A stretch of 49,477 nt of DNA from the IMG/VR virus record IMGVR_UViG_2703718798_000005. One strand, 5' to 3'. The position numbers and the translations under genes were made by a program. Below the pieces are notes generated by a model. The model was not told the DNA's origin, searched no databases, and worked only from the letters and a program-made list of their open reading frames with translations. This document shows positions 20,195 to 40,775 of this stretch, piece by piece. Numbering within the stretch: the stretch's first letter is position 1; the number at the start of each line of letters is the position of its first letter. The DNA comes from a virus (Duplodnaviria; Heunggongvirae; Uroviricota; Caudoviricetes).

Positions 20195-21509
20195 TTTAGG
20201 TTATGCCGCCACCCTTCCCTCAAAAGAGGCGGTGGCATACTTCCGCGCCAAAGGGGTGCATATCAGCTGGAACTGGTTCGAAACAGACGCGGATGTTCAT
20301 GCCCGTTCATTCACGGCGGCAAGAGTGGCACGCCTGGACGTACTGACCACACTACAGGCGGAAGTGCAGCGTGCTGTTGATGAGGGGATTTCACAGAAAG
20401 CATTTATCAGCACGCTGACACCCCGCCTGCAAAAGCTGGGATGGTGGGGAAAACAGATTGTGGTGGACAGCGCCGGTAACGCAGAAGAAGTGCAGCTGGG
20501 CAGTCCCCGCCGTCTGGCGCTGATTTACAACGTGAATACCCGTGTGGCTTACAATGCCGGGCGTTACACGCAGATGATGAACAACACGGACACGCATCCG
20601 TTCTGGCAGTATGTGGCGGTGATGGACAGCCGCACCCGCCCGGCGCATTCCGCTCTTAACGGTCTGGTATTCCGCTATGACGATCCGTTCTGGAATACAC
20701 ACTACCCACCCAATGGCTGGAACTGTCGCTGCCGTGTCCGGCCATTGTCTCAGGTCCGTCTGGATGCAATGGGGTTATCCGTTTCATCCGGTCAGGATCA
20801 TCTCTCCACCCGCAATGTTGAGGCTGGCGTGGATAAGCAGACCGGGGAAGTCAGAGAAATGCCGGTGACCACATATTCAGATGGCACCAGAACCATGACA
20901 CCGGATGTGGGCTGGTCATATAACCCCGGTTCGGCGGCGTTCGGCACAGACCAGGCGCTGATCCGTAAACTGATCGAGGTGAAAAGCCCGGCGCTGCGGG
21001 AAATGGTGGTTCAGGAGATGAACAACAGCCCGGAGCGGCAGCTGGCGTTCCGCATCTGGGCAAAAAACATCATGAAAACCCGGCGAGGCGGTAACGATAT
21101 CCGCACGCTGGGCTTTATGACCGAAAGCATTGCGCAGGCGGTGGAAAGCCGGACGGGAACGCCACCGGCCCGCCTGCTGGCGATGAGCGGTAAAAATGTG
21201 CTCCATGCGGACAGCATGAAACATCAGAATGACGGTATCGCCCTGACGCCGGAGGATTTCGGGCGCTTACCGGCAATGCTGGCAAGGCCAAAAGCGGTAC
21301 TGTGGGACAAACGGCACAACAATCTGATGTATATCGTGGAAAATCAGGATGGCAGTGTGCAGATTGCCGTTAATGCACCGTACAGCCTGAAGCGTCAGCC
21401 GGATAAACTGGATGTGATTGTTAATGCTTACCGGGTTATCAATATGGATAAGCTGAAATCGGATATCCGGGGCGGAATGCTTGAGGTACTGGAAGGAGAT
21501 ATTGATTAA
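20178..21509 (+). CDS. Mu F-like head morphogenesis protein
   Basis: 443 aa; PFWQYVAVMDSRTRPAHSALNGLVF ... NGWNCRCRV matches the Phage Mu F family as recalled. Confidence 0.8.
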   Translation: MAQGIDLGYAATLPSKEAVAYFRAKGVHISWNWFETDADVHARSFTAARVARLDVLTTLQAEVQRAVDEGISQKAFISTLTPRLQKLGWWGKQIVVDSAGNAEEVQLGSPRRLALIYNVNTRVAYNAGRYTQMMNNTDTHPFWQYVAVMDSRTRPAHSALNGLVFRYDDPFWNTHYPPNGWNCRCRVRPLSQVRLDAMGLSVSSGQDHLSTRNVEAGVDKQTGEVREMPVTTYSDGTRTMTPDVGWSYNPGSAAFGTDQALIRKLIEVKSPALREMVVQEMNNSPERQLAFRIWAKNIMKTRRGGNDIRTLGFMTESIAQAVESRTGTPPARLLAMSGKNVLHADSMKHQNDGIALTPEDFGRLPAMLARPKAVLWDKRHNNLMYIVENQDGSVQIAVNAPYSLKRQPDKLDVIVNAYRVINMDKLKSDIRGGMLEVLEGDID

Positions 21510-21630
21510 CGGTCAGTGGCGGGGGTCGAACCCGCATACATGATCCACCCGGAGGCAGGCACCGACTTTACCAGTTAAGCGTACACTGACCGCCTGTTTA
21601 TTTTATATTCATCCTTTATGCGGAGGCAAT

Positions 21631-22104
21631 ATGTCATCCATTGATGCCGCTGTCGTTGTTGACGTTACGCGTCTCCAGCGGGTCTTTGCCCGGCTTCAGT
21701 TTGTGGGTGGCGGGAAAGGCCTGGCCCGCAGTGTGGCGTCCAGCCTTCTGTCATCGTCAGAAATGGCGTTTGAACAGGAAAAAGAGCCGGACGGCGAACG
21801 CTGGCATGACTGGTCAGATCCTTACCGCAAGTGGCGTACCCGTAAGGGATACATGCCCGGCAAAATCCTGACACTGAACGGCGATCTGGCCCGACGCCTG
21901 ACCACGGATTATGGCGACACCTGGGCGCTGATTGGATCAAATGAGCCTTATGCGGCCATTCATCAGTGGGGTGGCCTGCCCGGTATGCCGCCGGGACCGG
22001 CGGCCATTGGTGCACGTCCGTATATGGGCTTTGATCAGGTGGCAGAGCAGGAGATCATGGACGAAATCAGAAAACGCTTTAAAAAGGCCACAGAAACGCC
22101 TTAA
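21631..22104 (+). CDS. Mu G-like virion morphogenesis protein
   Basis: 157 aa; position between F and I. Confidence 0.65.
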   Translation: MSSIDAAVVVDVTRLQRVFARLQFVGGGKGLARSVASSLLSSSEMAFEQEKEPDGERWHDWSDPYRKWRTRKGYMPGKILTLNGDLARRLTTDYGDTWALIGSNEPYAAIHQWGGLPGMPPGPAAIGARPYMGFDQVAEQEIMDEIRKRFKKATETP

Positions 22105-24395: not shown

Positions 24396-24800
24396 ATGAA
24401 TGAACATCACACTGTGGCAGCAACAGATGATTCAGGTCTTCAGGTCAGTGGTGACAATTCTGTCACGGTGCTGGCAGAAGTGCGTTGCAGTCGTTCGGCG
24501 TTTCGTCGTGCGGGGTTCCTGTTCACGCGTGGACGTCAGCAGGTTGAGGTCACCCCGGAGCAGCTTGCCCGACTGGAGGCGGAGCCATGCCTCACTGTGC
24601 GAATACTACAGACGTCTGCTGATGATGCGGGGAGCGTGGCGGGTGTGGTTCATGCAGTGGCCGGTACAGATTTAGCCGAAGCCGAAGCCGAAGCCGAAGC
24701 CGAAGCCGAAGCCGAAGCCGAAGCCGAAGCCGAAGCCGAAGCCGGACAGGATGCTCCCTGGAAAAAGACCGGTAACAAAGCGAAACAGGCCCGTGCATGA
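24396..24800 (+). CDS. Hypothetical head-region protein containing an (Ala-Glu)11 tract
   Basis: 134 aa ORF with RBS GGAGGG; contains an in-frame hexanucleotide repeat. Confidence 0.55.
   Translation: MNEHHTVAATDDSGLQVSGDNSVTVLAEVRCSRSAFRRAGFLFTRGRQQVEVTPEQLARLEAEPCLTVRILQTSADDAGSVAGVVHAVAGTDLAEAEAEAEAEAEAEAEAEAEAEAGQDAPWKKTGNKAKQARA
24675..24740 (+). repeat. Perfect tandem hexanucleotide repeat (GCCGAA)x11
   Basis: Read directly: 11 uninterrupted GCCGAA units followed by GCCG; encodes AEAEAE... Confidence 0.9.
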
Positions 24801-25216
24801 ATTACGCCACTGAAACCGATATGCGGGCGCGTTACCGCGAGGATTTGCTCAGGCCGTTACTGGCTGTGCCCCGTTCGGATGAGCCGGATACGCGCAAGCT
24901 GAACCGGGCGCTGACAGATGCGTCAGCCCTTATCGACAGCTATCTGTCCGCCCGTTACACGCTGCCGCTGGAGGTTATTCCGGCCGTTCTTGTTCAGCAC
25001 TGTTGCGCGATTGCCTTTTATTACCTGTGCGATCAGCGAGCCTCAGATCAGGCGCGTGACCGTTACCGTGAGGCGCTGGCCTGGCTGAAAGATGTCATGA
25101 ACGGCAATGTGCCGGTAGGTGTGGATACGAACGGAGCGGCCCCTGAATCCGGGGATTTACCACAGGTTCAGTCTGATGCAGCGGTATTCGGGCGCAACCA
25201 GAAGGGCTTCATATGA
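24797..25216 (+). CDS. Mu gp36-like protein (DUF1320-like), putative head-tail joining
   Basis: 139 aa; position after the major head gene. Confidence 0.5.
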   Translation: MNYATETDMRARYREDLLRPLLAVPRSDEPDTRKLNRALTDASALIDSYLSARYTLPLEVIPAVLVQHCCAIAFYYLCDQRASDQARDRYREALAWLKDVMNGNVPVGVDTNGAAPESGDLPQVQSDAAVFGRNQKGFI

Positions 25217-25773
25217 TTACGGAAACCGAACAGGCATACATCGCCCGTATCCGTGAGTATTTCGGGAATGAACTGGTGTCTGTTGACACGCATCCCGGCG
25301 ACTGGAACGACAGCGTACTGCGCACCATGCTGATTAACGCCCCGGCGATCTACGTTGCCTGGCTGGGTGCCGGTGAAGGCCGTACCCGTGGTCGCCTGGT
25401 CAGTCACTGGGTGTTCTACGTCATCGGCGACATGCTCAACGGGCGTGAGGCCAGCCGTCCCGGATTGTATCAGATTGTGGCCCGGCTGATTGCCGTGCTT
25501 AACGGCTTCAGAACAGAAAAAACCTCACCGCTTTACTTTGAAAAGGCGGTCAACGGTTACACCGAAACCCAGGCGGACAGTGGTGCGGTGATGTATGCGC
25601 TTTATTTCTCCTGCGAGGAAATGATCGCACCGCTGACCGATATCAGCTCGCTGGACGACTTCCTGCGTCATTACGAAACCTTTGTGGAGCCGCCCGGTAC
25701 GCCGCCGTTTGAGGCACATATTGATTTGCCGGGGAACACGACAACGGCGGTCGAACCGCCGGAGGAACTGTAA
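25213..25773 (+). CDS. Mu gp37-like protein (DUF1834-like)
   Basis: 186 aa; position. Confidence 0.5.
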   Translation: MITETEQAYIARIREYFGNELVSVDTHPGDWNDSVLRTMLINAPAIYVAWLGAGEGRTRGRLVSHWVFYVIGDMLNGREASRPGLYQIVARLIAVLNGFRTEKTSPLYFEKAVNGYTETQADSGAVMYALYFSCEEMIAPLTDISSLDDFLRHYETFVEPPGTPPFEAHIDLPGNTTTAVEPPEEL

Positions 25774-26019
25774 ATGAAAACCATCTTTATCAAACCCGCG
25801 CCGGGACGCCTGATTCGTGATCCCGACACAATGCGCCCGCTGGCACAGGAGGGGGAGGAAAAGCCCTTTACGCCGTTCTGGTGTCGGCGTCTTGATGACG
25901 GCGATGTCATTCAGGCTGAAAAAGCCGCTGAAGAGGCTCCGGCTGTATCTGCGGATGCAACGACTGCGACAGAAAAACCGGTCGCCCAACCGGCATCCGA
26001 TAAGGAGAAACCGCAATGA
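25774..26019 (+). CDS. Hypothetical protein (Mu gp38 position)
   Basis: 81 aa ORF immediately upstream of the sheath gene. Confidence 0.45.
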   Translation: MKTIFIKPAPGRLIRDPDTMRPLAQEGEEKPFTPFWCRRLDDGDVIQAEKAAEEAPAVSADATTATEKPVAQPASDKEKPQ

Positions 26020-27515
26020 TTAATTTTGACGGGATCGGTAATGACCGCCGTATACCGCTGATTGAGGTTGAGTTTAATAACTCCATGGCTGTCACCGGCA
26101 CTCCGGCACAGCGTCAGTGTGTGCTGCTGTTTGGTCAGGCGAGAATGAAAGAGAATGCCGTGGACGGTGCCGGTGTTCTGGATGTTCCGGTCAGGATCAC
26201 CCGTGCGTCTCAGGCAACAGAATTCTGGGGGCGCGGCTCCATGATTGCCCTGATGGTGGCGGAATTTATCGCCATCAATCCTGATGCTGAACTGTATGCC
26301 ATTGCTCAGGGGAGCGGCACCGGTCAGGCTCAGGCATGTCTCATGAATATAATTGGCACCGCCTCTCAGGATGGTGTTCTGCACATTTATATCGGCGGTC
26401 GGCGTTATCTGCTGGCTGTCACGAAGGGGCAGAAAGGTAAGGAGCTTATTGACGCTCTGGTCTCTGTTATTAATGCCGATGCTGATGCGCCCTTCAGTGC
26501 TTATGCAGGTCAGGTAGCAGATAACGCCAGCGGACTCAAGGGAAGTATGGGAATTAATGCCCGTTTTACCGGTGAATGTTCCGTACATGATATCCGTGTT
26601 AATTATCATGACGGAGAAACCACACCGGGTGGACTGACCATTGAACTTGGGTATCCCAAAACAAAAGCCACTAACCCGGATATCACCCGAAGCGTGGCGG
26701 GTATGGGCGATCGCCAGTACAACTATGTCGTCATGCCCTATAAGGATGATGCAAACCTGAAAATCATCAGTGATGAGCTTCTGAAACGCTGGGGACCGGC
26801 CAAAATGTCTGACGGTGTGCTGTGGATGGCGCATACCGGCACGTTTGGTGAGGTGCAGGCATTCGGGGCAAAACGCAATGATTTTCTGGCGACCTGCACA
26901 TTCATTCCCAAAGCCCCTGAACCGGATTACCTCTGGGCAGCGGCGGTCTGCGCCACCTGTGCGCCGTCTCTGGGGGCAGATCCTGCGCGTCCGCTTCAGA
27001 CGCTGGCGCTTCCGTCACGCATGGCCCCGGCCCCGGCCGATCGTCTGACGCGTGAAGAGCGTAACAGTCTGCTGTGGGGAGGGATTGCCACGGTCAGTGT
27101 GGCTGCCGGTGATGTGGTTCAGATCGAACGTCAGGTGACCATGTATCGCCAGAACGTGTACGGCGAAAGTGATCCCAGCTATCTGGATGTGGAAACCATC
27201 TACACCCTCTCCTGGCTGCGTTATTCCCTGCGTACTTTTATCACACAACGTTTTCCGCGCCATAAACTGGCTGATGACGGGACGCCCGTTCGTGCCGGTC
27301 AGAATATCGTGACGCCGGAGATCATGAAGCTTCAGTTAATTTCGCTGGGTGAAGAGTGGGTGGAACTCGGGCTGGTCGAAAATCTGGACACCTTTAAAAA
27401 GAATCTGCTTGTGGAGCGTAATGCGTCAGATCGAAACCGTCTTGACGTGTTATGCACGCCGGATCTGGTTAACCAGTTCCGCTTCCTGGCAGCACAGATC
27501 CGTTTCATTTTGTGA
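26016..27515 (+). CDS. Contractile tail sheath protein
   Basis: 499 aa; size and position upstream of tube and tape measure. Confidence 0.8.
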   Translation: MINFDGIGNDRRIPLIEVEFNNSMAVTGTPAQRQCVLLFGQARMKENAVDGAGVLDVPVRITRASQATEFWGRGSMIALMVAEFIAINPDAELYAIAQGSGTGQAQACLMNIIGTASQDGVLHIYIGGRRYLLAVTKGQKGKELIDALVSVINADADAPFSAYAGQVADNASGLKGSMGINARFTGECSVHDIRVNYHDGETTPGGLTIELGYPKTKATNPDITRSVAGMGDRQYNYVVMPYKDDANLKIISDELLKRWGPAKMSDGVLWMAHTGTFGEVQAFGAKRNDFLATCTFIPKAPEPDYLWAAAVCATCAPSLGADPARPLQTLALPSRMAPAPADRLTREERNSLLWGGIATVSVAAGDVVQIERQVTMYRQNVYGESDPSYLDVETIYTLSWLRYSLRTFITQRFPRHKLADDGTPVRAGQNIVTPEIMKLQLISLGEEWVELGLVENLDTFKKNLLVERNASDRNRLDVLCTPDLVNQFRFLAAQIRFIL

Positions 27516-27523
27516 GGTAAGGC

Positions 27524-27889
27524 ATGAGCGGAAAACAGTATCAGGGCACGGCCACTATCCGTGTGAACGGTCAGGAATACGAGACGCTTGAGGGGGCTAC
27601 ATTTTCTCCGTCAGGTTTTGAACGTGAAGTGGTGAAAGGCGCGAAAGTCTATGGTTACCGCCAGAAACCACGTGAAGCGACACTGGACTGCAAATTTCCG
27701 GCAGGCGGAGAAGGTTCACCAGCCGCCGATGAAATCAACAACTGGACTGCTGTCACTATCGAGTTTGTGGCGGATACCGGCGAAGTCCACATGATGACGA
27801 AGGCCTGGAGCAGTGAACCGGCCTCGCTTGACGGTGGCGGGGAGATCTCCGTGAAGTTCGCCAGCGCCACCAGTACCCGTGTTCAGTGA
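27524..27889 (+). CDS. Tail tube protein
   Basis: 121 aa following the sheath gene. Confidence 0.75.
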   Translation: MSGKQYQGTATIRVNGQEYETLEGATFSPSGFEREVVKGAKVYGYRQKPREATLDCKFPAGGEGSPAADEINNWTAVTIEFVADTGEVHMMTKAWSSEPASLDGGGEISVKFASATSTRVQ

Positions 27890-27903
27890 TCAGGAAAAAT
27901 AAA

Positions 27904-28380
27904 ATGACCACACGTAAGAAAAAAACGGCAGTTTCCGAGGCAGCCGTGATGGAGGCAATCCGGGAAGCACTTGAGGGGGCTGATCCACGCACTGCCGGGC
28001 TGACAGAGCAACTGGCAAAGGGATATGTGGATCTGCTTGATGGTCTGCCGTTTGGTGAGACCCGTGAATATCGTGTCACGTTCCGGGAACTGACAGCGAA
28101 AGACAGTATTGACGCAGAAGCAGAAGCCGAGCGCGTGGTGGAGACAAACAATGGCCCGATGCTGATAGCGTCTCCGTCGTTACGCGGTGTTGCACTGCTG
28201 CGCCGTCAGATTGCCGCAGTGGGAGACATTGAAGGTCCGTTGTCACCCCGTCAGATTGGACAGTTAAGCGAGCGCGATCTCTCCCGCCTGATGGCAGCGG
28301 TCAGCCTGCTGGATACCGCGCTTGCCGGAAAGCTGGCAGCTGACCGGGGGCGATCAGGCGCAGTGTCGGGATCAGATTGA
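27904..28380 (+). CDS. Tail assembly chaperone, putative (possible frameshift extension to 28504)
   Basis: Start moved to ATG 27904 (RBS AGGA); lies between tube and tape measure genes; the neighbouring frame is open from about 28292 to 28504. Confidence 0.5.
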   Translation: MTTRKKKTAVSEAAVMEAIREALEGADPRTAGLTEQLAKGYVDLLDGLPFGETREYRVTFRELTAKDSIDAEAEAERVVETNNGPMLIASPSLRGVALLRRQIAAVGDIEGPLSPRQIGQLSERDLSRLMAAVSLLDTALAGKLAADRGRSGAVSGSD

Positions 28381-28506
28381 AGAAGCGGCAATTATCCTGG
28401 GGATGGTGACAAAAAGCGGTCCGGAATGGGCGCTTAACCTCCCCCTGTCGCAACTTTACCGGCACTGCCGACAGACAGAAAAAATCATCAGAACGAAGCA
28501 GTAAGT

Positions 28507-30582
28507 ATGGCCCGAAATCTCAGAGCATCTCTGATAGTTGATTTGCTCGGCAATATCTCAGCCAAATCCCGCCAGTGGTCACAGGAGCTGGGGGCATTCT
28601 CACGCTCCGGCCAGGCGGGGCTGGGTGGCCTGGGAAATGCTGCCCGCCGTGCCGGGCAGGAAACAGATGTACTCGGAAGCAGGATGCAGCGCACGCTGGC
28701 CGGGGTGCGGGGCAGTATCCGCCATGTCACTTCTGATTTTGACCGTCTTCAGGGCAGTATTACCGGCACCATCGGGCGGATCAGCAATCTTTACGGAATG
28801 CTGGCCGGTGGTGCTGCTGTATATGGCTTTAACCGGGGATTTATTCGCCCGGCAGCGGAGATGGAAACCTATATGATTCGCCTGAACTCCCTTTACAAAG
28901 GGGATCGGGCGAAAACTGATGATGTCCGCAGGTGGGCAATACAGAATGCGAAGGAAACCACCTGGGGGCTGGCTGGCGTCATGCAGGAATATACGTCCAG
29001 TCTGGGCTTTGGTATGAGTGACAGGGAGGCCCGAAATTTTGTCACCATGCTTCAGGATCAGGGTGCCGTGGGCGGCTGGTCACTGTCCGATGCACAGGGG
29101 GCATCCCTGCAACTGAAACAGATGTATGCAAGAGGCAGTATTCAGGCAGCGGATGCAAATATTCTTGCCACCTACGGCATTAATGCCTACCGCGTGCTGG
29201 CTGATCGTCTGGGTGTGGACCAGAAAGTGGTCAGAAAACTTGGTGAAAAAGGGCTGCTTGGGCCGGACAGTATTCGCCTGTTATTTCAGACGCTGGCGGA
29301 ACAGGCCAGGGGAGCACAAAAGGACGCAATGAATTCCTGGAGTGGCCTGACGGCCATGATGGGTGACGTCTGGGATCAGTTTGCCCGGGATGTGATGGAC
29401 AGTGGGCCATTTGAAAAACTGAAGGGTAATCTCAGGGGATTTCTTTCATGGGTTGACAGTGCCAAATCTGATGGCAGTTACCATTCCCTGGCGGAAAGTA
29501 CGGCATCAGCCATGAACCAGGGCTTTGAGTATGCCCGTGATGCAGTGACAGGGTTTTATCAGGCGATCAGAAAGGTACGCGACACGCTTCAGGCTCTGCG
29601 GGATGCGGGCTATGGTGATGCGCTGGATCGCATTGGTCAGGGGGCACAGACCGCCGCGAAATACCTGCTGTACATGTATCTCGCCACCCGTGCCCTGAAA
29701 ATGGCGCGGGCTGTCGGAACGGGGATTATACGTCCGGGTGCTGCATTGCTGGGATACGGATTATCAGCGGCGGCCTTCCTTACCTCACCTTTCCGGCGCT
29801 CTCCTCCGGCCGGAACACCACCAGGCACATCTCAGGGACGAGGGCAACGTTTTATAAACTTTCTTACCGGGGTAAATCCGGCAGCCGTTCAGCCAGTACT
29901 TGTAACAAACTGGCCCACAGGAGGACTGTCCGGCACCGGCGCGACCGATACATCCTCAGGCGGACGTCAGGGGCGGGGCCGCAGGAAACGCGGACCGGGG
30001 CGCGGAAGACCGGTCACGCCTCCCCTGCCACCGTCCCCAGTGCCACCGTCTCCCTCTTCTGGTGGGGCAGGGTTCTGGGGGCGCATGATGGGGCGCGCCG
30101 GTGGGTTACTTTCGTCTGTCGGTAGCCGCATGGGGCTGGGGCGTTTCTCCGGCTTTTTCCGCAGTGCCGGTGGACTGGCCGGCCGGCTGGGTGGAGGTGC
30201 CCTGTGGGCTGGCGCGATGGCAGCCCCGGTTCTGCTGGATGGCAGCGCCAGTGCCACAGACAAGGGAGAAGCGGTCGGCTCTCTTGCAGGCAGTATTGCC
30301 GGTGGTGCGCTGGGGGCGGCAGCCGGACCTGTGGGGATTGCCATTGGTTCTACGGTGGGCAGCTATCTCGGTAACTATCTGGGGGGATGGCTGACTGAAG
30401 CCTGGCAGAAATTACGGGGCAGTGATGATGAAAGCAGTGGACAGGCGGTACAAAAAGCCTCTGCCCGTGTGGAGCTGGTTGCCCCGGAAGGGTGGCAGGC
30501 TCGCAGTATTGATATTGATGACACGTCCGGTCACGGACTGGATGTGAATGTCTGGAACGGAGGGAATTATGGCCTCTGGTGA
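28507..30582 (+). CDS. Tail tape measure protein
   Basis: 691 aa; Gly/Ala-rich C-terminal region; follows the chaperone. Confidence 0.8.
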   Translation: MARNLRASLIVDLLGNISAKSRQWSQELGAFSRSGQAGLGGLGNAARRAGQETDVLGSRMQRTLAGVRGSIRHVTSDFDRLQGSITGTIGRISNLYGMLAGGAAVYGFNRGFIRPAAEMETYMIRLNSLYKGDRAKTDDVRRWAIQNAKETTWGLAGVMQEYTSSLGFGMSDREARNFVTMLQDQGAVGGWSLSDAQGASLQLKQMYARGSIQAADANILATYGINAYRVLADRLGVDQKVVRKLGEKGLLGPDSIRLLFQTLAEQARGAQKDAMNSWSGLTAMMGDVWDQFARDVMDSGPFEKLKGNLRGFLSWVDSAKSDGSYHSLAESTASAMNQGFEYARDAVTGFYQAIRKVRDTLQALRDAGYGDALDRIGQGAQTAAKYLLYMYLATRALKMARAVGTGIIRPGAALLGYGLSAAAFLTSPFRRSPPAGTPPGTSQGRGQRFINFLTGVNPAAVQPVLVTNWPTGGLSGTGATDTSSGGRQGRGRRKRGPGRGRPVTPPLPPSPVPPSPSSGGAGFWGRMMGRAGGLLSSVGSRMGLGRFSGFFRSAGGLAGRLGGGALWAGAMAAPVLLDGSASATDKGEAVGSLAGSIAGGALGAAAGPVGIAIGSTVGSYLGNYLGGWLTEAWQKLRGSDDESSGQAVQKASARVELVAPEGWQARSIDIDDTSGHGLDVNVWNGGNYGLW

Positions 30583-31914
30583 CGGTCGTGGTGCGTTCCG
30601 TGGTGTGCCGTTCCTCGTCTGGCGTGAGCAGCGCGAACGTGGTGGGCGAAACATTGTCCGTCGGGAATATCCGTTACGGGAAACCGGTGGGGCAGACGAT
30701 CTGGGACCTAAACTGACTGAATTTACGTTCAGTGTACTTGTGATGGGGGATGATGTTCAGACACAGCGAAATCGTCTGCGTGATGCCCTTCGTGCTCCCG
30801 GTGCCGGGGAGCTGCTTCACCCGGATTACGGCACGTTAAATGTGCTGATAAACAGCTTTGAAAGTCGTTATAACGCCGCTGAACAGGGCGTGGTTGAGTT
30901 CACCATTAATGTCACGCCGGTAAGTGATGATACCGCACCTGCTGTCACACAGGACACGGCCGCCATTCTGGAGCAGAAGAGTACCACCGCGCTCGGGCAG
31001 GTTTTTGAAACCCTGGAAGCGGGCTGGACGGTGATCTCTGACGGAATGCACGATGTCCAGGCAATGACCGAAACCATCAGTGATAAGGTGTCCGCCCTGG
31101 AAAATGCCGTTTCCGGCATGGGGATTGTACAGGATATCAGTGCCTTTACTGCCACGTTCACGGCGCTGAAAGGGAATGCCACGGCATTACTGACAGCACC
31201 TTCCCGCATGGCCTCATCTTTTGCGGGGCTTTTCAGTGCCCTGATCACCCTGCCATCGCTGCCGTCACTGTCTTCAGGAGGCCTGAATACCCGGCCGGCA
31301 GTATCGGCCGGACGACATCCGCCGTCTCTCAGGGAATGCCGCAACTGTACAGGACATTATCTTCCCTGCGTTACGTGCTGGATGAGCAGGATAATCCGCA
31401 GACTCTCATCGGTCTGACACCGGCAGCACAAAAGAATATTCGTCTGATACGGGCGGTAATGCAGAGTGCTGCCGTGGTGGCCCAGGCACAGACCGTGGGA
31501 AAACTGCTGGATCAGGTTCTCAGTCAGGAAACCCTGCCGGACAGTGACGCAGCCCACCGTACCTGGCCTGTCTGGCTGGAAAGTTCAGTTGATCTTCAGC
31601 GCATTAACCGTGACTTAAGCGAAGCGCTCGAACGGCAGGTGATGACACTGTCCGGGCAGGGGTATACCGCCACGGCGCTGACGCTTCGTGATGCCAGACT
31701 GGCACTGACAGAGGATCTGAATACACGGGGAGTTCAGCTACCCGGTGCAACAGTAGTGACTGTACGTACCACCGAGCCTGCACTGGTGACCCTGTACCGT
31801 GCCACCGGGAACAGTACCGGCTGGCAACGTTTTGTGCGCCGTAACGGTATTGTTGATCCGCTGTTCATTCCCGGAGGCCATTCAGTGGAGGTGATTAGTG
31901 AGCAGCAGGGTTGA
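30569..31914 (+). pseudogene. DNA circularization protein (Mu N/gp43-like), apparently frameshifted
   Basis: N-terminal part in frame 2 (30569-31417), C-terminal part in frame 1 (open from about 31084, ATG at 31336, to 31914); the frame-2 tail is Cys-rich and implausible while frame 1 reads like protein. Confidence 0.55.
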
Positions 31915-33022
31915 ACTGTATCTGGGCGGTGAGATTTTTTCCGGCTGGCTGACGGTGAGTGTTCGTCGCTCTCTTGAACATCTGGCGGGCTCCTTTGAAC
32001 TGGGGGTAATGATGCCCGGTGTACGCCTTCCGTCATCCGTCCGTGCCGGTCAGTCTCTGGAATTGCGCATTGACGGTCAGCCTGTGATCACTGGCTGGCT
32101 GGATCAGGTCCGGCAGCGCATCAGCGCCACGCGTTTTCAGATCACGCTCAGCGGACGGGATAAAACCGGTGACCTGGTGGACTGTTCAGCCATTCATCCG
32201 GGCAGCCAGTGGAGGAACCGCACGCTGGAGCACATTGCTTCAGATTTGTGTGCTCCGTTCGGGGTCACGGTGCGCTGGCAGGTAAATGATGCAACGGCAG
32301 CCCGGCCCTTTTCCACCTTCACACTGGAAAATTCAGAAACCGTGGCAGATGCGCTGACACGGGCCGCGAGACACAGAGGCGTCCTGGTAACCAGTAATGC
32401 CGCCGGTGAACTGGTTTTCACTCAGGCCGGCAGTCAGCGTGGCGACACGCTGACGCTGGGCGAAAATCTGCTGGATTTGGATCACAACGTGGATCACCGT
32501 CTGCGCCACAGTGAATACCGTGTACGGGGGCACGGGCGTGGTGGTGGTCATGCCGGGGATGCACTGACAGCCGGAACGCTGGCCGCACCAGTTGGTACGG
32601 TGACAGACAGTGCCATCCACCGTTACAGACCGAAAATTGTGCTGGCGGATCATGCTGTTGATGCAGACGGTGCACGCCAGAGGGCTGTCCGGGAAATGCG
32701 CCGGGCGGTTGCCCGCTCTGTGCGCCTGACAGCCACCGTGCGGCACTGGTTTCGGGAGAACGGCCAGTTGTGGGATATCAACCTGCTGACGGCTGTCACG
32801 GCTCCCCGCACCGGAGTGGAAGAGCGTGATCTTCTTGTCTGTCAGGTGGAGTTTTCGCTGGATGCAAATCACGGCGAAACCACCCGTCTGATTCTGGCAC
32901 CCCGTGACGGCTTTATTGTTCCGGCAGAGCCGGGAAACAGCGGAAGCGGAAATGCGGGTGACGTGGACGCCTTCGTGCGGGCACAGATGAAAAAACAGGG
33001 GATTAAATTCAATGATGAATGA
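31898..33022 (+). CDS. Baseplate hub / late control D-like tail protein (Mu gp44-like)
   Basis: 374 aa; position after the tape measure and N genes. Confidence 0.7.
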   Translation: MSSRVELYLGGEIFSGWLTVSVRRSLEHLAGSFELGVMMPGVRLPSSVRAGQSLELRIDGQPVITGWLDQVRQRISATRFQITLSGRDKTGDLVDCSAIHPGSQWRNRTLEHIASDLCAPFGVTVRWQVNDATAARPFSTFTLENSETVADALTRAARHRGVLVTSNAAGELVFTQAGSQRGDTLTLGENLLDLDHNVDHRLRHSEYRVRGHGRGGGHAGDALTAGTLAAPVGTVTDSAIHRYRPKIVLADHAVDADGARQRAVREMRRAVARSVRLTATVRHWFRENGQLWDINLLTAVTAPRTGVEERDLLVCQVEFSLDANHGETTRLILAPRDGFIVPAEPGNSGSGNAGDVDAFVRAQMKKQGIKFNDE

Positions 33023-33626
33023 CGAAGTCATCAGCCGCCTTCTGGCCCCCGTGATGCGGGGTGTTCGTCTGCTGTTCGGGCGTGGTGTACTGACCGGCAC
33101 AACGGACACGCTGAAAATCCAGAATGTGCAAATCACCGGTATGGATGGTGAAACCTTTGATGACGTTGAACGCCCCCAGCAGTACGGGCAAATCAGCGTC
33201 CCCCTGCCTGGTGCGGAAGTTTTTCTGGCCTGTGCTGGCGGACAACGGGATCAGGCCGTGGTGCTTGTGGTGGAAGACCGCCGCAGTCGCCCGACCGGAC
33301 TTACCGCCGGAGATACCGGCGTGTATCACCATGAGGGGCACCGTATACGTCTGACAAAGAACGGCCGGATCATTGTGACCTGTAAGACACTGGAGATTTA
33401 CGCCGATGAAGGTGTTCAGGTGGATACACCGGAGGCTCACTTTACCGGTAATATCACAGTGGATAAGAACCTGCATGTCAAAGGCAATGTGTCCATTGAC
33501 GGCACCGGAAGATCACAGGGGGCGTTCACGATGTCCGAAGCGGTTATTGCCGGGATCACCTATTCAGGTCATGTGCATCACGATAACGGTGAAGGCAGCA
33601 AAACGGGAGGACCAGAGAATGGCTGA
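33012..33626 (+). CDS. Baseplate assembly/spike protein (Mu gp45-like)
   Basis: 204 aa; position. Confidence 0.7.
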   Translation: MMNDEVISRLLAPVMRGVRLLFGRGVLTGTTDTLKIQNVQITGMDGETFDDVERPQQYGQISVPLPGAEVFLACAGGQRDQAVVLVVEDRRSRPTGLTAGDTGVYHHEGHRIRLTKNGRIIVTCKTLEIYADEGVQVDTPEAHFTGNITVDKNLHVKGNVSIDGTGRSQGAFTMSEAVIAGITYSGHVHHDNGEGSKTGGPENG

Positions 33627-34056
33627 TATTGCTGTCGTCTGGGATCAGGGTTGTGGTTCCCTGCAACTGAACGGCGCAGATCTTCTGACGGATAACAGCC
33701 TGCTGACTGCGGTCATTATTTCACTGTTTACGGACAGGCGGGCGCTGGATTCCGATGAAATCCCTGACGGCACCCGTGACCGTCGGGGATGGTGGGGAGA
33801 CAGTTTCCGGGAGCGCCCCATTGGCTCCCGTCTCTGGCTGTTAAGCCGTGAAAAGACGCTGTCCTCCGTGGTCAGCCGTGCACAGGCCTATGCTGATGAA
33901 GCGCTGGCGTGGCTGCATAAAAGCGGTGCTGCCACATCCGTGGTATGTCATGCCATGCGTGTGGGGCATGATCGCCTTTCGCTTTCCGTGAAAATCACCC
34001 TGCCGGACGGAAGCAGACATCCGATGATTTTTTATGCTGATATGAAGGGGGAATGA
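33619..34056 (+). CDS. Baseplate protein (Mu gp46-like)
   Basis: Start moved to ATG 33619 overlapping the preceding stop; position. Confidence 0.65.
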   Translation: MADIAVVWDQGCGSLQLNGADLLTDNSLLTAVIISLFTDRRALDSDEIPDGTRDRRGWWGDSFRERPIGSRLWLLSREKTLSSVVSRAQAYADEALAWLHKSGAATSVVCHAMRVGHDRLSLSVKITLPDGSRHPMIFYADMKGE

Positions 34057-35138
34057 TGCCTTATCAGCCCTTACCACTGGCGCAACTGATCACACAGACA
34101 CAACAGGATATCAGCCAGCGCCTGCCCGGTTCGCAGCCGGGCGTGAATGAAACCACCCTGAATGCCATTGCGTATGCACTGGCGGGTCTGTCAGCACAGG
34201 AGCATGAACATCTGGCCTGGATCTCCCGGCAGATAATTCCGACAGAAGCTGATGAAGCCGAACTCCTGAAACACTGCGCATTCTGGGGTGTCATCCGTAA
34301 ACCGGCTTCCCGCGCTGACGGACCGGTACAACTGATGCTGACCACGGATGCAGGGATCACGGAAGGCGTACTCCTTCAGCGAAGCGATGGTGTTGTGTAC
34401 CGCATCACCGGCTCTGCGACCGGAAAAGCCGGAACACTGAATGTTAATGTGGAGGCGGAAAGTGCGGGGCGCGCCGGAAATACCCCGACCGGAACCCGCC
34501 TGTCCTTTATCACGCCACAGGCGGGCATCAACCAGACAGCCACGGTTACCGGCACGGGACTCACCGGTGGTGCGGATGTGGAAACGGTGCCGGAGTTGCT
34601 GTCCAGGCTGGTATTCCGGGTACAGAACCCGCCATCAGGGGGAACACAGTATGATTTTGAACGCTGGGCACGGGAAGTACCGGGCGTGACGCGGGCATGG
34701 TGTAAGCCTGAATGGCCTGAGGCGGGTAGTGTTGGTGTGACTTTTGTTCAGGATAATAACCCTGACATTTTCCCCGGAGAAGGTGATGTGAAGCGGGTGG
34801 CGGATTATATCCGCAGTCATGATGATCCGGCGACGGGCCAGCCCGTTGGTCAGCCACTTGGGCCGACAATCAGCGTGTTTAAGCTGACCAATAAGCCGGT
34901 GGCGTTTGAGATCAGGATTGTACCCAAAACGCCGGAAAATCAGGCTGCCGTAAAACAGGCATTAACGGACCTGCTTTATAACGAATCGCGGCCGGGTGGA
35001 CTTGTATTGCCTTCATCATTCTGGCGGGCTGTTGCAGGGGTGAAAGGACTGGAGGATTTTGAAGTTCGCAGTCCGCTGAAGTCCGTGATGGCCGGAGATA
35101 CAGAGTTGCTGACCGTGGGGGAAATCACATGGCTGTAA
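34053..35138 (+). CDS. Baseplate J-like protein (Mu gp47-like)
   Basis: 361 aa; position and size. Confidence 0.75.
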   Translation: MMPYQPLPLAQLITQTQQDISQRLPGSQPGVNETTLNAIAYALAGLSAQEHEHLAWISRQIIPTEADEAELLKHCAFWGVIRKPASRADGPVQLMLTTDAGITEGVLLQRSDGVVYRITGSATGKAGTLNVNVEAESAGRAGNTPTGTRLSFITPQAGINQTATVTGTGLTGGADVETVPELLSRLVFRVQNPPSGGTQYDFERWAREVPGVTRAWCKPEWPEAGSVGVTFVQDNNPDIFPGEGDVKRVADYIRSHDDPATGQPVGQPLGPTISVFKLTNKPVAFEIRIVPKTPENQAAVKQALTDLLYNESRPGGLVLPSSFWRAVAGVKGLEDFEVRSPLKSVMAGDTELLTVGEITWL

Positions 35139-35689
35139 CCCTGACCCCGCATCAGCGCGCCCTGTTGCAGTTGCTGCCTGACGGGCTGGCATGGGATAAG
35201 CGGCCGTCATCCGTTCTTGCGGCTTTGTGCCTGGGCCTCAGTCATTCCACGGAGCGTGTTTCCTGGACCGGTAACCAGATGCTGGCAGAACGTTTTCCTG
35301 ATTCATCCCGTCTGCTGCTGGAAGACTGGGAGCGTTATCTGGGGTTACCGGAATGTGATATGACCGGCGCAACCATTCAGGAACGTCAGCGTTATGCAGG
35401 GAATAAATACCGGATGAAACCCTCTCTTAACCGTGAATTTTATATCCGGTTTGCGGCAGAGTTTGGTTATGAAATAGATATTCAGCCATCACCGGATTCA
35501 CAGTGGGTCAGTATTGTCACGATAAACAGTGAAACCGGCTACCGGAATATGAATGTGCTGGATGATATTCTCACCCCGCTGCGTATTTATGAGGGTGGTG
35601 CGCTGGAATGTATTCTGAACCGTTATAAGCCTGCATGGCAGACGTTTATTTACGTGTATGCAAACAGTCACAAAGAGGAGAATATTTAA
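35129..35689 (+). CDS. Tail protein (Mu gp48-like, DUF2313-like)
   Basis: 186 aa; position before the tail fibre gene. Confidence 0.65.
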   Translation: MAVTLTPHQRALLQLLPDGLAWDKRPSSVLAALCLGLSHSTERVSWTGNQMLAERFPDSSRLLLEDWERYLGLPECDMTGATIQERQRYAGNKYRMKPSLNREFYIRFAAEFGYEIDIQPSPDSQWVSIVTINSETGYRNMNVLDDILTPLRIYEGGALECILNRYKPAWQTFIYVYANSHKEENI

Positions 35690-36600
35690 TGTTCCATGTT
35701 GATAATAATTCCGGCGTGGCGAATATGCCTGAACTGGCTCCGGCGCAGAGTAATACCACCACCTGGTTTACCGAAGGTGACGGACAAAAAGGTATCAGCT
35801 GGATTGGTCAGGACTGGCTGAATATTCTCCAGGCCGAACTGCTGAATATTCTGGCTGAAGCCAGTATTCAGCCGGATAAGGCGCAGTTAAACCAGCTTAC
35901 GCTGTCCATTAAAGCCATTATCGCTGCGAATGCCTTTTCCCGGAAAAACAACCTGAAAGAAATTGCTGATGCCGGTGCGGAAGCCCAGCGTCTGGCCCGT
36001 GGTTATCTTGGTCTGGGGACGCTTGCCACAAAAAACAGTCTTGGTCCCGCTGACGTTAATGCCCTGGCGAAGGATCAGAACCTTGCCGACCTGGAGAATG
36101 CGGAAACCGCCCGTAATAATCTGGATGTTTACAGCAGGAGCGAAGGTGATAACCGTTACCTGCGCAGGGACCAGAATGGCGCGGATATCCAGGACAAAGG
36201 AACCTTTATCGATAACCTCGGTTTACGGGAAACGGTAAATAAGGCTGCTGATGCCCTGCCATCGGCTGGAACCGCCGTGGCAGCAAACAGACTCGCCACC
36301 CCAAGAAATATTAATGGTGTTCCTTTTGACGGAACGCTGGATATCAACATCACGTCAGGAATGACGCAGTCAACCGCAGATGGCCGGTATGTACAGAATG
36401 TTCAGCTTGGAGCACAGAGCTATCATTCACCCGGAGGCAATGAAATGTCATGGAATTACAGCGCACCTTCCGGTTGTATGCTTTCCGGTATTAACGTGCA
36501 GGAAACCGGCTCCCGGTCTGCGGACAATATCGGTGGGGTCTATTATCGCCCGGTTCAGATTTATATTAATAATACCTGGAGAACGGTAAGTTCAGTGTAA
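35689..36600 (+). CDS. Tail fibre protein S (constant part plus currently fused variable tip)
   Basis: Start at ATG 35689 overlapping the preceding stop; crosses the left recombination site at about 36206-36231; last roughly 120 aa lie inside the invertible segment. Confidence 0.8.
   Translation: MFHVDNNSGVANMPELAPAQSNTTTWFTEGDGQKGISWIGQDWLNILQAELLNILAEASIQPDKAQLNQLTLSIKAIIAANAFSRKNNLKEIADAGAEAQRLARGYLGLGTLATKNSLGPADVNALAKDQNLADLENAETARNNLDVYSRSEGDNRYLRRDQNGADIQDKGTFIDNLGLRETVNKAADALPSAGTAVAANRLATPRNINGVPFDGTLDINITSGMTQSTADGRYVQNVQLGAQSYHSPGGNEMSWNYSAPSGCMLSGINVQETGSRSADNIGGVYYRPVQIYINNTWRTVSSV
36206..36231. repeat. Left recombination site (gix-like) inside the tail fibre gene
   Basis: TTATCGATAACCTCGGTTTACGGGAA, close to the Mu gix sequence as recalled. 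Confidence 0.7.
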
Positions 36601-36634
36601 ACCACAGAAAAGGGTGCTGAATGCACCCTCTGAA

Positions 36635-37156
36635 TTATTCCGGTTTTTCCGGCCAGGGAATCGCCTGGTAATGCCCCTCACTGGCAATATCATTAAAGTG
36701 CATTTCTTTAAGCTGTCGGATATACGCCATCCAGCGCGTCAGCTGTAATTTATTTTCATCGCTAATCATGTCCAGTTTTAATTCTGTTTTCCAGTCATCC
36801 ACGGTTTCGTTGGCTTCCTGGAGCAGCGATGAGCGACGCTTTTCAGCAACCGTCTTCCAGTTTACCGGCACCTTTGATATCAGGCCATCAGAAAACTGCC
36901 AGTTACCGTCAATATTCACACCTTCCGGCAGTTCGTCCACTTCAACAACAGTAAAACCTGCCGGATATAAAGCAGAGACATCTTCAGCAACAGAGCAGAT
37001 AATACCCGTTACAGGCGAAATACAGAGTTTGTATTTCTTTGTAAAAAGCGGGATAGATTCATAAAAATCCCTTCCGTCCTCACTCTGGAAATACTGAACA
37101 TCCTCACCATAGGGTTTGTCTTTCGGGTAATATCGTTTGACATTAATCAGTTGCAT
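36635..37156 (-). CDS. Tail fibre assembly protein (Tfa/U-like)
   Basis: Start moved to internal Met (MQLINVKRYY); C-terminal ...QAIPWPEKPE typical of Tfa chaperones; inside the invertible segment. Confidence 0.75.
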   Translation of the reverse strand: MQLINVKRYYPKDKPYGEDVQYFQSEDGRDFYESIPLFTKKYKLCISPVTGIICSVAEDVSALYPAGFTVVEVDELPEGVNIDGNWQFSDGLISKVPVNWKTVAEKRRSSLLQEANETVDDWKTELKLDMISDENKLQLTRWMAYIRQLKEMHFNDIASEGHYQAIPWPEKPE

Positions 37157-37277
37157 AAACATCACCATGTAAATCAATGATAAAAACAGGAATAATACTA
37201 TCGCCATATACAGGCAATGCTTGTCTGAAATAACGCATATTTCAGATGCTGGCTGCTGTGTGCTATGCCCCCGTTAA

Positions 37278-37649
37278 TTAAATACTTGCAGCGGATACCC
37301 AATGCCCATTAATACAATATTGTATCTGTCTGTAATAAACACGGTCATCACCACCACGCATTTCCCAGTCTCCGTCAGTCTTAAAACCGGTAATCACATT
37401 TCCTGATGACAGGGAGTAATTATATTCCAGTCCGCCGCTTAATGCCTGCGCTCCCAGTCTTACCCCTGTAACATAACGCTGATTGGCCGTTGATTCCGGC
37501 ATTCCTGACGTAATGTTTATATCCTGCGTGCCGTCAAAGGCGACACCATTGATTCTGCGGGCATTTGCCAGCCTGCTTGCTGCAACAGCCGTACCGTTTG
37601 ATGGCAGGGCATTCGCGGCCCTGTTTACCGTATCCCGTAAACCGAGGTT
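37278..37649 (-). CDS. Alternative tail-fibre C-terminal segment (promoterless until inversion)
   Basis: Minus-strand frame reads NLGLRDTVNRAANALPSNGTAVAASRLA..., parallel to NLGLRETVNKAADALPSAGTAVAANRLA... of the expressed tip; a stop lies immediately outside the right recombination site. Confidence 0.7.
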   Translation of the reverse strand, partial: NLGLRDTVNRAANALPSNGTAVAASRLANARRINGVAFDGTQDINITSGMPESTANQRYVTGVRLGAQALSGGLEYNYSLSSGNVITGFKTDGDWEMRGGDDRVYYRQIQYCINGHWVSAASI

Positions 37650-37657
37650 TCAGGGAT
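37632..37657. repeat. Right recombination site (gix-like), inverted
   Basis: ATCCCGTAAACCGAGGTTTCAGGGAT, inverted relative to the left site. Confidence 0.7.
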
Positions 37658-37711
37658 GCCGTATATCTACTTTAAAAGGCTTTTCCACCTCTTTTTAAGG
37701 AAGGTAAATAC

Positions 37712-40740: not shown

Positions 40741-40775
40741 TAACGGGGCAATATACCTGCAAAAGGAGAATATTC

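What the first reader, a model, noticed from the sequence alone, without database searches (positions are those of the whole stretch)
28292..28504. Possible programmed frameshift extending the tail assembly chaperone
The chaperone ORF (27904-28380) is overlapped by an open frame (about 28292-28504) that ends 2 nt before the tape measure start. This resembles the conserved chaperone frameshift of tailed phages, except that the frame relationship is +1 or -2 rather than the usual -1. I could not identify a convincing slippery site by eye.
Basis: inference. Interest (0 to 1): 0.35.

Follow-up and report, generated by a model that had tools for sequence, protein, structure and literature searches.

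The report
Mu-type -2 frameshift in tail chaperone
This is the Mu-like prophage version of the known phage Mu "-2" ribosomal frameshift, which makes a short and a long tail-assembly chaperone from one gene; it is real but ordinary, and simply missing from the public annotation.

Summary
The chaperone gene (27904-28380) is overlapped by a +1/-2 open frame (28292-28504) that ends 2 nt before the tape-measure ATG (28507).

It is the same nonamer, in the same frame, as in phage Mu gene 41. The Mu GenBank record marks that shift as a "verified -2 translational frameshift" (product FS-gp41, UniProt P0DJY4).

Supporting evidence:
- The 51-aa extension is 47% identical to Mu's.
- It evolves as coding sequence in the shifted frame.
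- It has no conserved start codon of its own.
- In 143 non-redundant homologous loci, GGGGCGA is present in frame near the chaperone's end, and the +1/-2 frame then runs 33-55 codons (46-52 in 36 of the loci) towards the tape-measure gene.

I found no stimulatory RNA structure and no Rfam match.

Predicted products are the 158-aa chaperone and a minor 200-aa fusion (...LAADRG-GDQAQCR...). That fusion is absent from a 15-billion-protein collection, and RefSeq leaves 28381-28506 empty.

Verdict: an unannotated member of a known, experimentally verified kind. Low interest. The -2 direction (rather than +1) is inferred from Mu, not shown here.

The parts
27904..28380 (+). Tail assembly chaperone gene, the homologue of Mu gp41 (158 aa). 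This is the zero-frame product and presumably the major one.
   Evidence: ORF list. RefSeq annotates it as 'phage tail assembly protein' WP_000213225.1. Pfam PF23746 Gp41_Mu, E=5e-31, covers residues 44-149. PHROG 508, tail assembly chaperone. 46-49% identical to Mu gp41.
28345..28353 (+). Frameshift site CGG_GGG_CGA, with codons written in the chaperone frame. Proposed model: peptidyl-tRNA-Gly on GGG (28348-28350) slips back 2 nt onto GGG (28346-28348) while CGA occupies the A site.
   Evidence: Identical nonamer, in the same frame, in Mu (L002 1858-1866). GGGGCGA is the only invariant block in a 13-lineage alignment whose mean column identity is 41%. An in-frame GGG_CGA preceded by G is present in 36/36 and in 107/107 unique homologous loci. 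It is the only homopolymer run of 4 or more bases in 28292-28380.
28349..28504 (+). Extension coding segment read after the -2 shift. It starts at GGC 28349-28351 and ends at TAA 28502-28504, giving 51 aa: GDQAQCRDQIEEAAIILGMVTKSGPEWALNLPLSQLYRHCRQTEKIIRTKQ. The fusion product is 200 aa.
   Evidence: Translation. 47% identical to the Mu FS-gp41 extension. PHROG 12783, E=1.6e-37. After the zero-frame stop, variable sites concentrate at third positions of the shifted frame (27/42, against 13/41 and 7/41).
28292..28504 (+).
   Evidence: Upstream of the site (28292-28344) substitutions follow the chaperone frame, not this one. That part is therefore open but not decoded in this frame.
27524..27889 (+). 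Tail tube gene, the upstream neighbour that defines the conserved context.
   Evidence: Pfam PF10618 Tail_tube, E=6e-31. RefSeq annotation.
28507..30582 (+). Tape measure protein gene, the downstream neighbour. Its ATG lies 2 nt after the stop of the extension.
   Evidence: Pfam PF20155 TMP_3, E=2e-18. RefSeq annotation.

Best explanation
This is a programmed -2 ribosomal frameshift of the phage Mu type.

Most ribosomes translate the chaperone gene from 27904 to its TGA at 28380 and make a 158-aa gp41-like chaperone. A small fraction shifts. For the Mu site, a review puts this at about 2%, and a preprint measured 14% for the bare 10-mer in a purified cell-free system.

Proposed steps of the shift:
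1. The ribosome pauses with peptidyl-tRNA-Gly on GGG (28348-28350).
2. The poorly decoded Arg codon CGA (28351-28353) sits in the A site.
3. The tRNA slips back 2 nt and re-pairs perfectly with GGG (28346-28348).
4. GGC (28349-28351) is read next, and translation continues in the new frame to TAA 28502-28504.

The result is a 200-aa fusion: chaperone residues 1-149 plus a 51-aa tail, with the junction ...LAADRG-GDQAQCR....

By analogy with lambda G/GT and P2 E/E+E', the shared N-terminal part would coat the tape measure protein. The extension would recruit the tail tube protein, and the fixed low ratio of long to short form would be needed for tail assembly.

What is shown here: the anatomy, the site, its conservation, and coding selection on the extension. 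What is inferred from Mu and from established knowledge of lambda and P2: the -2 direction, the efficiency, the role of CGA and the function of the two proteins.
For: 1. Phage Mu has the same arrangement, and its GenBank record annotates a joined CDS as 'verified -2 translational frameshift in PMID 15469818'. The literature states that Mu uses -2 (PMC2628397; PMC5009743), gives an efficiency of about 2.2% (PMC3498833), and reports 14% for the bare 10-mer in PURExpress (bioRxiv 10.1101/2025.10.02.679949).
2. My -2 model applied to the Mu sequence reproduces exactly UniProt P0DJY4 'FS-gp41' and GenBank UIW09302.1 (188 aa, junction RG-GEW). This fixes the site as CGG_GGG_CGA.
3. The window has the identical nonamer in the same frame, 27 nt before the chaperone stop.
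4. In-frame [C/A]GG_GGG_CGA (rarely AAG or TCG_GGG_CGA), followed by an open +1/-2 frame running towards the tape-measure gene (46-52 codons in the first 36 loci; 33-55 in the other 107), occurs in 36/36 unique loci from phages and genomes of Enterobacterales, Pasteurellales, Vibrionales, Alteromonadales, Aeromonadales and Oceanospirillales. It also occurs in 107/107 further unique IMG/VR loci. GGGGCGA is the only invariant block in a 13-lineage alignment.
5. Bracketing: in four loci (Shewanella, L027 and L044; Brenneria, L038; Marinomonas, L042) the +1 frame opens only 3 codons before the site. In the two Shewanella loci the zero-frame stop follows 6 nt after it. The shift must therefore occur within about 20 nt around the motif.
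6. Among 13 close relatives, variable sites move from third positions of the chaperone frame (51/61 upstream) to third positions of the shifted frame (27/42 in the extension).
7. The extension peptides are homologous across the family (G-D/E..., LPL motif) and form their own PHROG.
8. Other gene junctions in this late operon overlap or are 14 nt or less apart. Chaperone to tape measure is 126 nt, and the extension fills it exactly.
Against: - There is no experimental data for this prophage.
- Sequence alone cannot separate -2 from +1 at the same site, because the products differ by one Gly.
- No stimulatory element was found. Downstream folding is no better than shuffled sequence (z -0.31, +0.10, -0.60), there is no Rfam hit, and the upstream Shine-Dalgarno-like pairing is weak here (-3.5 kcal/mol).
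- Conservation of CGA could partly reflect double coding (Arg in frame 0, Gly-Asp/Glu in the shifted frame) rather than a need for a slow codon.
- This prophage copy carries a 4-nt deletion in the next tail gene. The frameshift product may therefore have no working tail to assemble in this strain.
Confidence: 0.85

Rival explanations
1. The site and product class are the same, but the ribosome moves +1. Peptidyl-tRNA-Gly on GGG re-pairs with GGC (28349-28351) while the A-site CGA is slow to decode. This gives a 199-aa fusion with junction ...LAADRG-DQAQCR.
For: The target frame is equally reachable by +1. A slow A-site codon after a slippery P-site codon is the classical +1 layout (established knowledge, for example prfB and Ty1; discussed in PMC5009743). 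Rare relatives have only four Gs (AAG_GGG_CGA in L018-L023, TCG_GGG_CGA in L031). In those, -2 re-pairing would be imperfect.
Against: In Mu, with the identical nonamer, the curated and reportedly verified product carries the extra Gly expected of -2 (188 aa, not 187). Here -2 allows perfect GGG-to-GGG re-pairing, whereas +1 gives a wobble mismatch. The fifth G is kept in 138 of 143 unique loci, and +1 would not need it.
Confidence: 0.07
2. The downstream frame is an independent small gene. It would start at TTG 28322 (60 aa, as deposited in GenBank as 'hypothetical protein') or at ATG 28403/GTG 28406, possibly by re-initiation after the chaperone stop.
For: The 60-aa ORF is in public databases as a hypothetical protein on 360 contigs. 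Phage D108 annotates a separate gene '41.5'. PHROG 12783 consists of such small ORFs.
Against: There is no conserved start codon. Mu and SfMu have no ATG/GTG/TTG in this frame before codon 28 of the extension, L042 has none before codon 28, and L053 has none between -15 and +44. There is no Shine-Dalgarno sequence before TTG 28322 (sequence). The stretch 28292-28344 evolves in the chaperone frame, not in this one. Peptide conservation starts at the first residue after the site. In four loci (L027, L038, L042, L044) the frame opens only 3 codons before the site.
Confidence: 0.03
3. RNA polymerase slips on the G5 run. Adding two Gs or dropping one would produce a minority of mRNAs in which chaperone and extension are in frame.
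For: The products would be identical to those of -2 or +1 ribosomal shifting, so protein data alone cannot exclude it. Length changes of this G run do turn up in assemblies: L052 and Logan proteins P0017/P0023 are genomically fused, with one G fewer.
Against: Known productive transcriptional slippage in bacteria needs longer runs, typically 7-9 or more A or T (established knowledge; PMC5009743). The invariance of CGA immediately 3' of the run has no role in a transcriptional model.
Confidence: 0.03
4. The open frame is a chance feature of a non-coding spacer between the chaperone and tape-measure genes.
For: A 70-codon open +1 run is not very rare in this window: 3.8% of runs, or 17% when weighted by length. 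RefSeq annotates nothing there.
Against: The frame is open and codes a homologous peptide in every one of 143 unique loci. Codon-position substitution bias shows purifying selection on the extension.
Confidence: 0.01

Closest known systems
Phage Mu gp41 / FS-gp41 (GenBank AF083977 Mu_41 and Mu_56; UniProt P0DJY4), -2 programmed frameshift (Xu, Hendrix & Duda 2004, PMID 15469818)
   Same: Gene order is sheath, tube, chaperone, tape measure. Both belong to Pfam Gp41_Mu. The CGG_GGG_CGA nonamer is identical and in the same frame. Both extensions are 51 aa and 47% identical, and both end just before the tape-measure start.
   Different: The chaperone is only 46-49% identical and has a longer N-terminus (158 against 144 aa). 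The site lies 27 nt rather than 21 nt before the zero-frame stop. The extension stop is 2 nt rather than 13 nt from the tape-measure start. The product has been neither demonstrated nor annotated for this prophage.
Lambda G/GT tail assembly chaperone frameshift
   Same: Same position (between the major tail/tube gene and the tape-measure gene). Same logic: two proteins share an N-terminus and are made at a fixed low ratio (PMC5009743).
   Different: Lambda shifts -1 on a heptanucleotide. No sequence similarity to lambda G/GT was tested here; the only Pfam hits were the Mu-type Gp41_Mu and Phage_TAC_7. Here the -1 frame is closed.
P2 E / E+E' frameshift (myovirus)
   Same: It is a contractile-tail phage. 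Pfam PF10109 Phage_TAC_7 ('E, or 41 or 14') gives a weak hit, E=1.8e-5. The position before the tape-measure gene is the same.
   Different: P2 uses -1 at TTTTTTG (PMC3091744). No such run is present here.
prfB (RF2) +1 frameshift
   Same: The target frame is +1, there is a G-rich element, and a poorly decoded A-site codon follows a slippery P-site codon.
   Different: prfB needs an in-frame stop codon in the A site and a Shine-Dalgarno sequence 3 nt upstream. Neither is present here.

Membership tests
Conserved tail-assembly-chaperone frameshift of tailed phages (G/GT type, Xu et al. 2004) | The two overlapping reading frames lie between the major tail (tube) gene and the tape-measure gene. 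| tested here: met
   Tube 27524-27889, chaperone 27904-28380, overlapping frame 28292-28504, tape measure 28507-30582.
Conserved tail-assembly-chaperone frameshift of tailed phages (G/GT type, Xu et al. 2004) | The second frame has no translation start of its own and is conserved as coding sequence. | tested here: met
   No start codon is conserved across homologues. Third-position substitution bias falls in the shifted frame. The extension peptides are homologous.
Conserved tail-assembly-chaperone frameshift of tailed phages (G/GT type, Xu et al. 2004) | A slippery sequence lies in the overlap. | tested here: met
   CGG_GGG_CGA at 28345-28353. It is invariant across the family.
Conserved tail-assembly-chaperone frameshift of tailed phages (G/GT type, Xu et al. 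2004) | Two proteins with a common N-terminus are made at a fixed ratio, and both are needed for tail assembly. | not testable with these tools
   This needs protein expression, mass spectrometry and genetics.
Mu-type -2 frameshift (gp41 / FS-gp41) | The chaperone is homologous to Mu gp41. | tested here: met
   PF23746 Gp41_Mu, E=5e-31, above its cut-off. tblastn against Mu, E=2e-26.
Mu-type -2 frameshift (gp41 / FS-gp41) | The extension frame is +1/-2 relative to the chaperone, and the -1 frame is closed. | tested here: met
Mu-type -2 frameshift (gp41 / FS-gp41) | The shift site is the same as in Mu. | tested here: met
   The nonamer is identical and in the same frame. The position of the Mu site is fixed by the exact match of the -2 model to P0DJY4/UIW09302.1.
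Mu-type -2 frameshift (gp41 / FS-gp41) | The shift is by -2, giving an extra Gly at the junction, rather than by +1. | not testable with these tools
   This needs the junction peptide: GGDQAQCR (-2) or GDQAQCR (+1).
Canonical -1 tandem slippage (X_XXY_YYZ) | A -1 frame open across the junction, plus a heptamer. | tested here: not met
   The -1 frame is open only over 28344-28409, and there is no X_XXY_YYZ heptamer.
prfB-type +1 frameshift | A stop codon in the A site and a Shine-Dalgarno sequence about 3 nt upstream of the shift codon. | tested here: not met
   The A-site codon is CGA. Anti-SD pairing upstream is weak (-3.5 kcal/mol) and no better than background.
Transcriptional slippage | A long homopolymer run, typically 7-9 or more. 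| tested here: not met
   The run is G5. The RNA-level test could not be done.

The most novel reading that the evidence does not exclude
The near-invariant signal G_GGG_CGA may work by something other than simple perfect re-pairing, and the direction of the shift may be flexible within the family.

Observations behind this reading:
- Rare lineages keep GGG_CGA but have lost the fifth G (AAG_GGG_CGA in L018-L023, TCG_GGG_CGA in L031), so -2 re-pairing there would be imperfect.
- The L018 clade has at the same time gained AGGTGA 4 nt upstream of the GGG codon, which is prfB-like spacing. This suggests a switch to +1.
- Many G5 lineages carry GGAG/GAGG 9-14 nt upstream, which is dnaX-like spacing that favours backward shifts.
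- The window and Mu lack both kinds of upstream element.

If true, one homologous site would use -2 or +1 depending on the spacing of an internal Shine-Dalgarno sequence.
Probability: 0.15. Interest if true: 0.35.

Novelty: new member of a known kind. Interest (0 to 1): 0.12.

Why it matters
The main value is for annotation.
- RefSeq/PGAP leaves 28381-28506 empty in this widespread E. coli prophage. A matching region is present in 228 of 5426 complete genomes, at 99% identity or more in 184 of the 229 matching records.
- GenBank holds the extension as a 60-aa 'hypothetical protein' starting at an arbitrary TTG.
- The 200-aa fusion is absent from a 15-billion-protein collection.

A simple rule would recover the product in every Mu-like locus examined (143 unique loci): an in-frame GGG_CGA preceded by G near the end of a Gp41_Mu gene, then read on from -2.

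Natural -2 frameshifting is rare, so the strict conservation of the heptamer across six orders of Gammaproteobacteria is a useful data set for people who study recoding. It does not change what is known about the mechanism.

Tried and rejected
- **Xu et al. 2004:** the paper is not held in the library. The Mu site was fixed indirectly, through the GenBank note and the exact match to P0DJY4.
- **Downstream RNA stimulator:** folding 87-211 nt of the window and of Mu gave z-scores of -0.31, +0.10 and -0.60. The Rfam E-value search of 28100-28700 found nothing. Rejected.
- **Motif enrichment in the window:** GGGGGCGA occurs 3 times against 2.6 expected. The motif count alone is uninformative; only position and frame conservation count.
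- **Open-frame length as evidence:** only weakly significant.
- **Upstream Shine-Dalgarno-like stimulator:** many homologues show a trend (the median background fraction is 0.135), but the window (-3.5 kcal/mol) and Mu (-1.7 kcal/mol) are at background. The trend may also come from conserved Glu codons. It is not claimed for this locus.
- **First genome-contig scan:** It was repeated with 5 sequences.
- **159-aa members of the cluster containing the 60-aa ORF:** these looked like possible fused proteins but are ordinary zero-frame chaperones of a sister prophage type.
- **-1 frameshift:** the frame is closed.
- **Not attempted:** structure prediction and the large protein searches, because the answer did not depend on them.

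Full report
**Observation.** The window carries a Mu-like prophage. Its late operon reads tail sheath (26016-27515), tail tube (27524-27889), tail assembly chaperone (27904-28380) and tape measure protein (28507-30582).

The chaperone is in frame 1. Frame 2 is free of stops from 28292 (after TGA 28289-28291) to TAA 28502-28504, which is 70 codons. That frame overlaps the chaperone by 86 nt upstream of the chaperone's stop codon, runs 124 nt beyond it, and ends 2 nt before the tape-measure ATG. Frame 2 is +1, equivalent to -2, relative to the chaperone. The -1 frame is open only over 28344-28409.

On its own this is only suggestive:
- 3.8% of stop-free +1 runs inside this window's long ORFs are at least 70 codons.
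- The octamer GGGGGCGA occurs about as often in the window as in shuffled sequence.

**Origin of the window.** The 1.4 kb around the finding is 100% identical to many E. coli chromosomes, many of them O157:H7 or other strains from cattle and human stool, and a match is present in 228 of 5426 complete genomes. RefSeq annotates the chaperone and the tape measure and leaves the 126 nt between them empty.

**The known counterpart.** A protein search of phage records finds Mu, D108, SfMu, Yersinia Mu-like phages and more distant Mu-like phages of Klebsiella, Pasteurella, Shewanella, Vibrio and Alteromonadaceae.
- The Mu GenBank record has, beside gene 41, a joined CDS (Mu_56) noted as 'verified -2 translational frameshift in PMID 15469818; tail assembly chaperone frameshift product'.
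- D108 instead annotates a free-standing gene '41.5'.
- Papers held in the library say the same about Mu. [quoted passage not shown] - A 2025 preprint measured 14% for the bare Mu 10-mer in a purified cell-free system.
- The original paper is not held.

**The slip site.** Mu reads ...CAA GAA CGG GGG CGA GTG... near the end of gene 41. The window reads ...GCT GAC CGG GGG CGA TCA... at 28339-28356.

I modelled a -2 shift after the GGG codon: read GGG, step back two bases, continue with GGC. For Mu this gives a 188-aa protein. An exact-sequence look-up shows it is identical to UniProt P0DJY4 'Probable tail assembly protein FS-gp41' and to GenBank UIW09302.1. That fixes the Mu site and shows that the curated product has the extra Gly of a -2 shift; a +1 product would be 187 aa.

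The same model in the window gives a 200-aa protein: chaperone residues 1-149, then GDQAQCRDQIEEAAIILGMVTKSGPEWALNLPLSQLYRHCRQTEKIIRTKQ. Neither this protein nor the 199-aa +1 version is in the 15-billion-sequence collection. A 60-aa ORF starting at TTG 28322 is there, as 'hypothetical protein'.

**Conservation.** I collected homologous loci from phage records, IMG/VR and one-genome-per-species contigs.
- In 36 of 36 unique loci of the first set, an in-frame xGG_GGG_CGA lies 6-30 nt before the chaperone stop. The +1/-2 frame then runs 46-52 codons to the tape-measure gene.
- In 107 of 107 further unique IMG/VR loci the site is CGG_GGG_CGA (101 loci) or AGG_GGG_CGA (6 loci).
- The only departures are G4 variants: AAG_GGG_CGA in one E. 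coli-type clade (L018-L023) and TCG_GGG_CGA in Pantoea (L031).
- Two loci at first seemed to lack the site. L040 has it but carries an upstream indel. L052 has one G fewer, so chaperone and extension are fused in the genome.
- In a 13-lineage nucleotide alignment with 41% mean column identity, the seven columns GGGGCGA are the only invariant block.
- In four loci (Shewanella, L027 and L044; Brenneria, L038; Marinomonas, L042) the +1 frame opens only three codons before the site. In the two Shewanella loci the zero-frame stop follows 6 nt after CGA. The shift is therefore confined to about 20 nt around the motif.

**The extension is coding but is not a separate gene.**
- Among 13 relatives at 80-100% identity, variable sites upstream sit at third positions of the chaperone frame (51/61, against 14/62 and 5/61).
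- After the zero-frame stop they sit at third positions of the shifted frame (27/42, against 13/41 and 7/41).
- The part of the open frame upstream of the site (28292-28344) still follows the chaperone frame.
- The extension peptides align across the family: G, then D/E, then an LPL-type motif. The window and Mu are 47% identical.
- The extension matches PHROG 12783, 'unknown function', E=1.6e-37.
- Pfam Gp41_Mu covers residues 44-149 and stops at the shift site.
- No start codon is conserved in the shifted frame. Mu and SfMu have none before codon 28 of the extension.
- TTG 28322 has no Shine-Dalgarno sequence in front of it.

**Stimulators.**
- Downstream sequence of the window and of Mu folds no better than shuffled controls (z -0.31, +0.10, -0.60).
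- Rfam finds nothing.
- Many homologues carry GGAG/GAGG 9-14 nt upstream of the GGG codon, but the window and Mu do not. These motifs could also come from conserved Glu codons.
- I therefore attribute the shift here to the nonamer alone.

**Mechanism.**
- Shown here: the site, the frames, conservation, and coding selection on the extension.
- Inferred from the Mu product and from general knowledge of P-site slippage: peptidyl-tRNA-Gly on GGG (28348-28350) slips 2 nt back onto GGG (28346-28348) while the A site holds CGA. GGC is then decoded, followed by the extension.
- Inferred from general knowledge of E. coli codon usage: CGA is rare and decoded through an I:A wobble.
- Inferred from lambda G/GT (PMC5009743) and P2 E/E+E' (PMC3091744): the common part would bind the tape measure, the extension would recruit the tube protein, and the ratio of the two forms would matter.

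**Rivals.**
- A +1 shift at the same site cannot be excluded from sequence. It is disfavoured by the Mu product and by the retention of the fifth G in 138 of 143 unique loci.
- An independent small gene, transcriptional slippage on G5, and a chance open frame are each contradicted by the data above.

**Verdict.** It is, however, the orthologue of an experimentally verified and reviewed case: phage Mu gp41/FS-gp41, the same site in the same family. I file it as a new (unannotated) member of a known kind, of low interest. The value lies in correcting the annotation and in documenting how strictly G_GGG_CGA is conserved.

**Caveat.** This prophage copy has a 4-nt deletion that splits the tail gene just after the tape measure. 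In this strain the chaperone pair may therefore no longer serve a functional tail.

Noticed in passing
window 31296-31297 (ORFs 30548-31417 and 31336-31914): Relative to the best E. coli matches, the window lacks 4 nt (CGGT) here. This splits the 'DNA circularization protein' gene, the tail gene just after the tape measure, into two overlapping ORFs. The gene is intact (450 aa) in CFSAN027343, and no complete genome matches the window exactly there: the best matches are 99.7% identical over the region, i.e. differ by this gap. It is either a defective prophage copy or a sequencing error.
   Followed up: partly
window 1-3100 and 43000-49477: The prophage flanks match a type VI secretion VgrG / RHS-toxin locus. 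The closely related prophage in EHEC strain CFSAN027343 (99.97% identical over 24728-42662, 96-98% over the early region) instead splits the lsrC gene. This fits Mu-type transposition into different chromosomal sites.
   Followed up: partly
window about 24690-24728 (gene 24396-24800): The window has about 54 nt more than CFSAN027343 inside the 'HI1506-related protein' gene (134 against 116 aa). The overlapping BLAST segments suggest a tandem-duplication type of indel.
   Followed up: no
L018-L023 (site about 1945-1953) and L031: These rare variants have only four Gs: AAG_GGG_CGA and TCG_GGG_CGA. A -2 slip there would re-pair imperfectly. The L018 clade also has AGGTGA 4 nt upstream of the GGG codon, a spacing like that of the prfB +1 stimulator.
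   Followed up: partly
L025-L053, the 21 nt upstream of the shift site: Many homologues carry Shine-Dalgarno-like GGAG/GAGG/AGGTG 9-14 nt upstream of the GGG codon. Their anti-SD pairing is stronger than background, with a median background fraction of 0.135. It is weak in the window and in Mu. It could be a stimulator or a by-product of conserved Glu codons.
   Followed up: partly
L052 (Marinomonas rhodophyticola) about 1460-1660; proteins P0017 and P0023: Here the G run is one G shorter (CGG_GGC_GAT), so chaperone and extension form a single genomic ORF. Two Logan assemblies of Mu-type phages encode 187-aa fused proteins in the same way. These may be real variants or homopolymer sequencing errors.
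   Followed up: partly
L054 21565-21644 (-), about window 21510-21590: RefSeq annotates a 'tRNA-OTHER' between the head morphogenesis and virion morphogenesis genes of the related prophage. ARAGORN finds no tRNA in window 21000-22000.
   Followed up: partly
L003 1871-2017 (phage D108); window 28322-28504: Public records treat the extension as a free-standing gene: D108 '41.5', and a 60-aa E. coli 'hypothetical protein' on 360 contigs. These are very probably mis-annotations of the frameshift product.
   Followed up: yes
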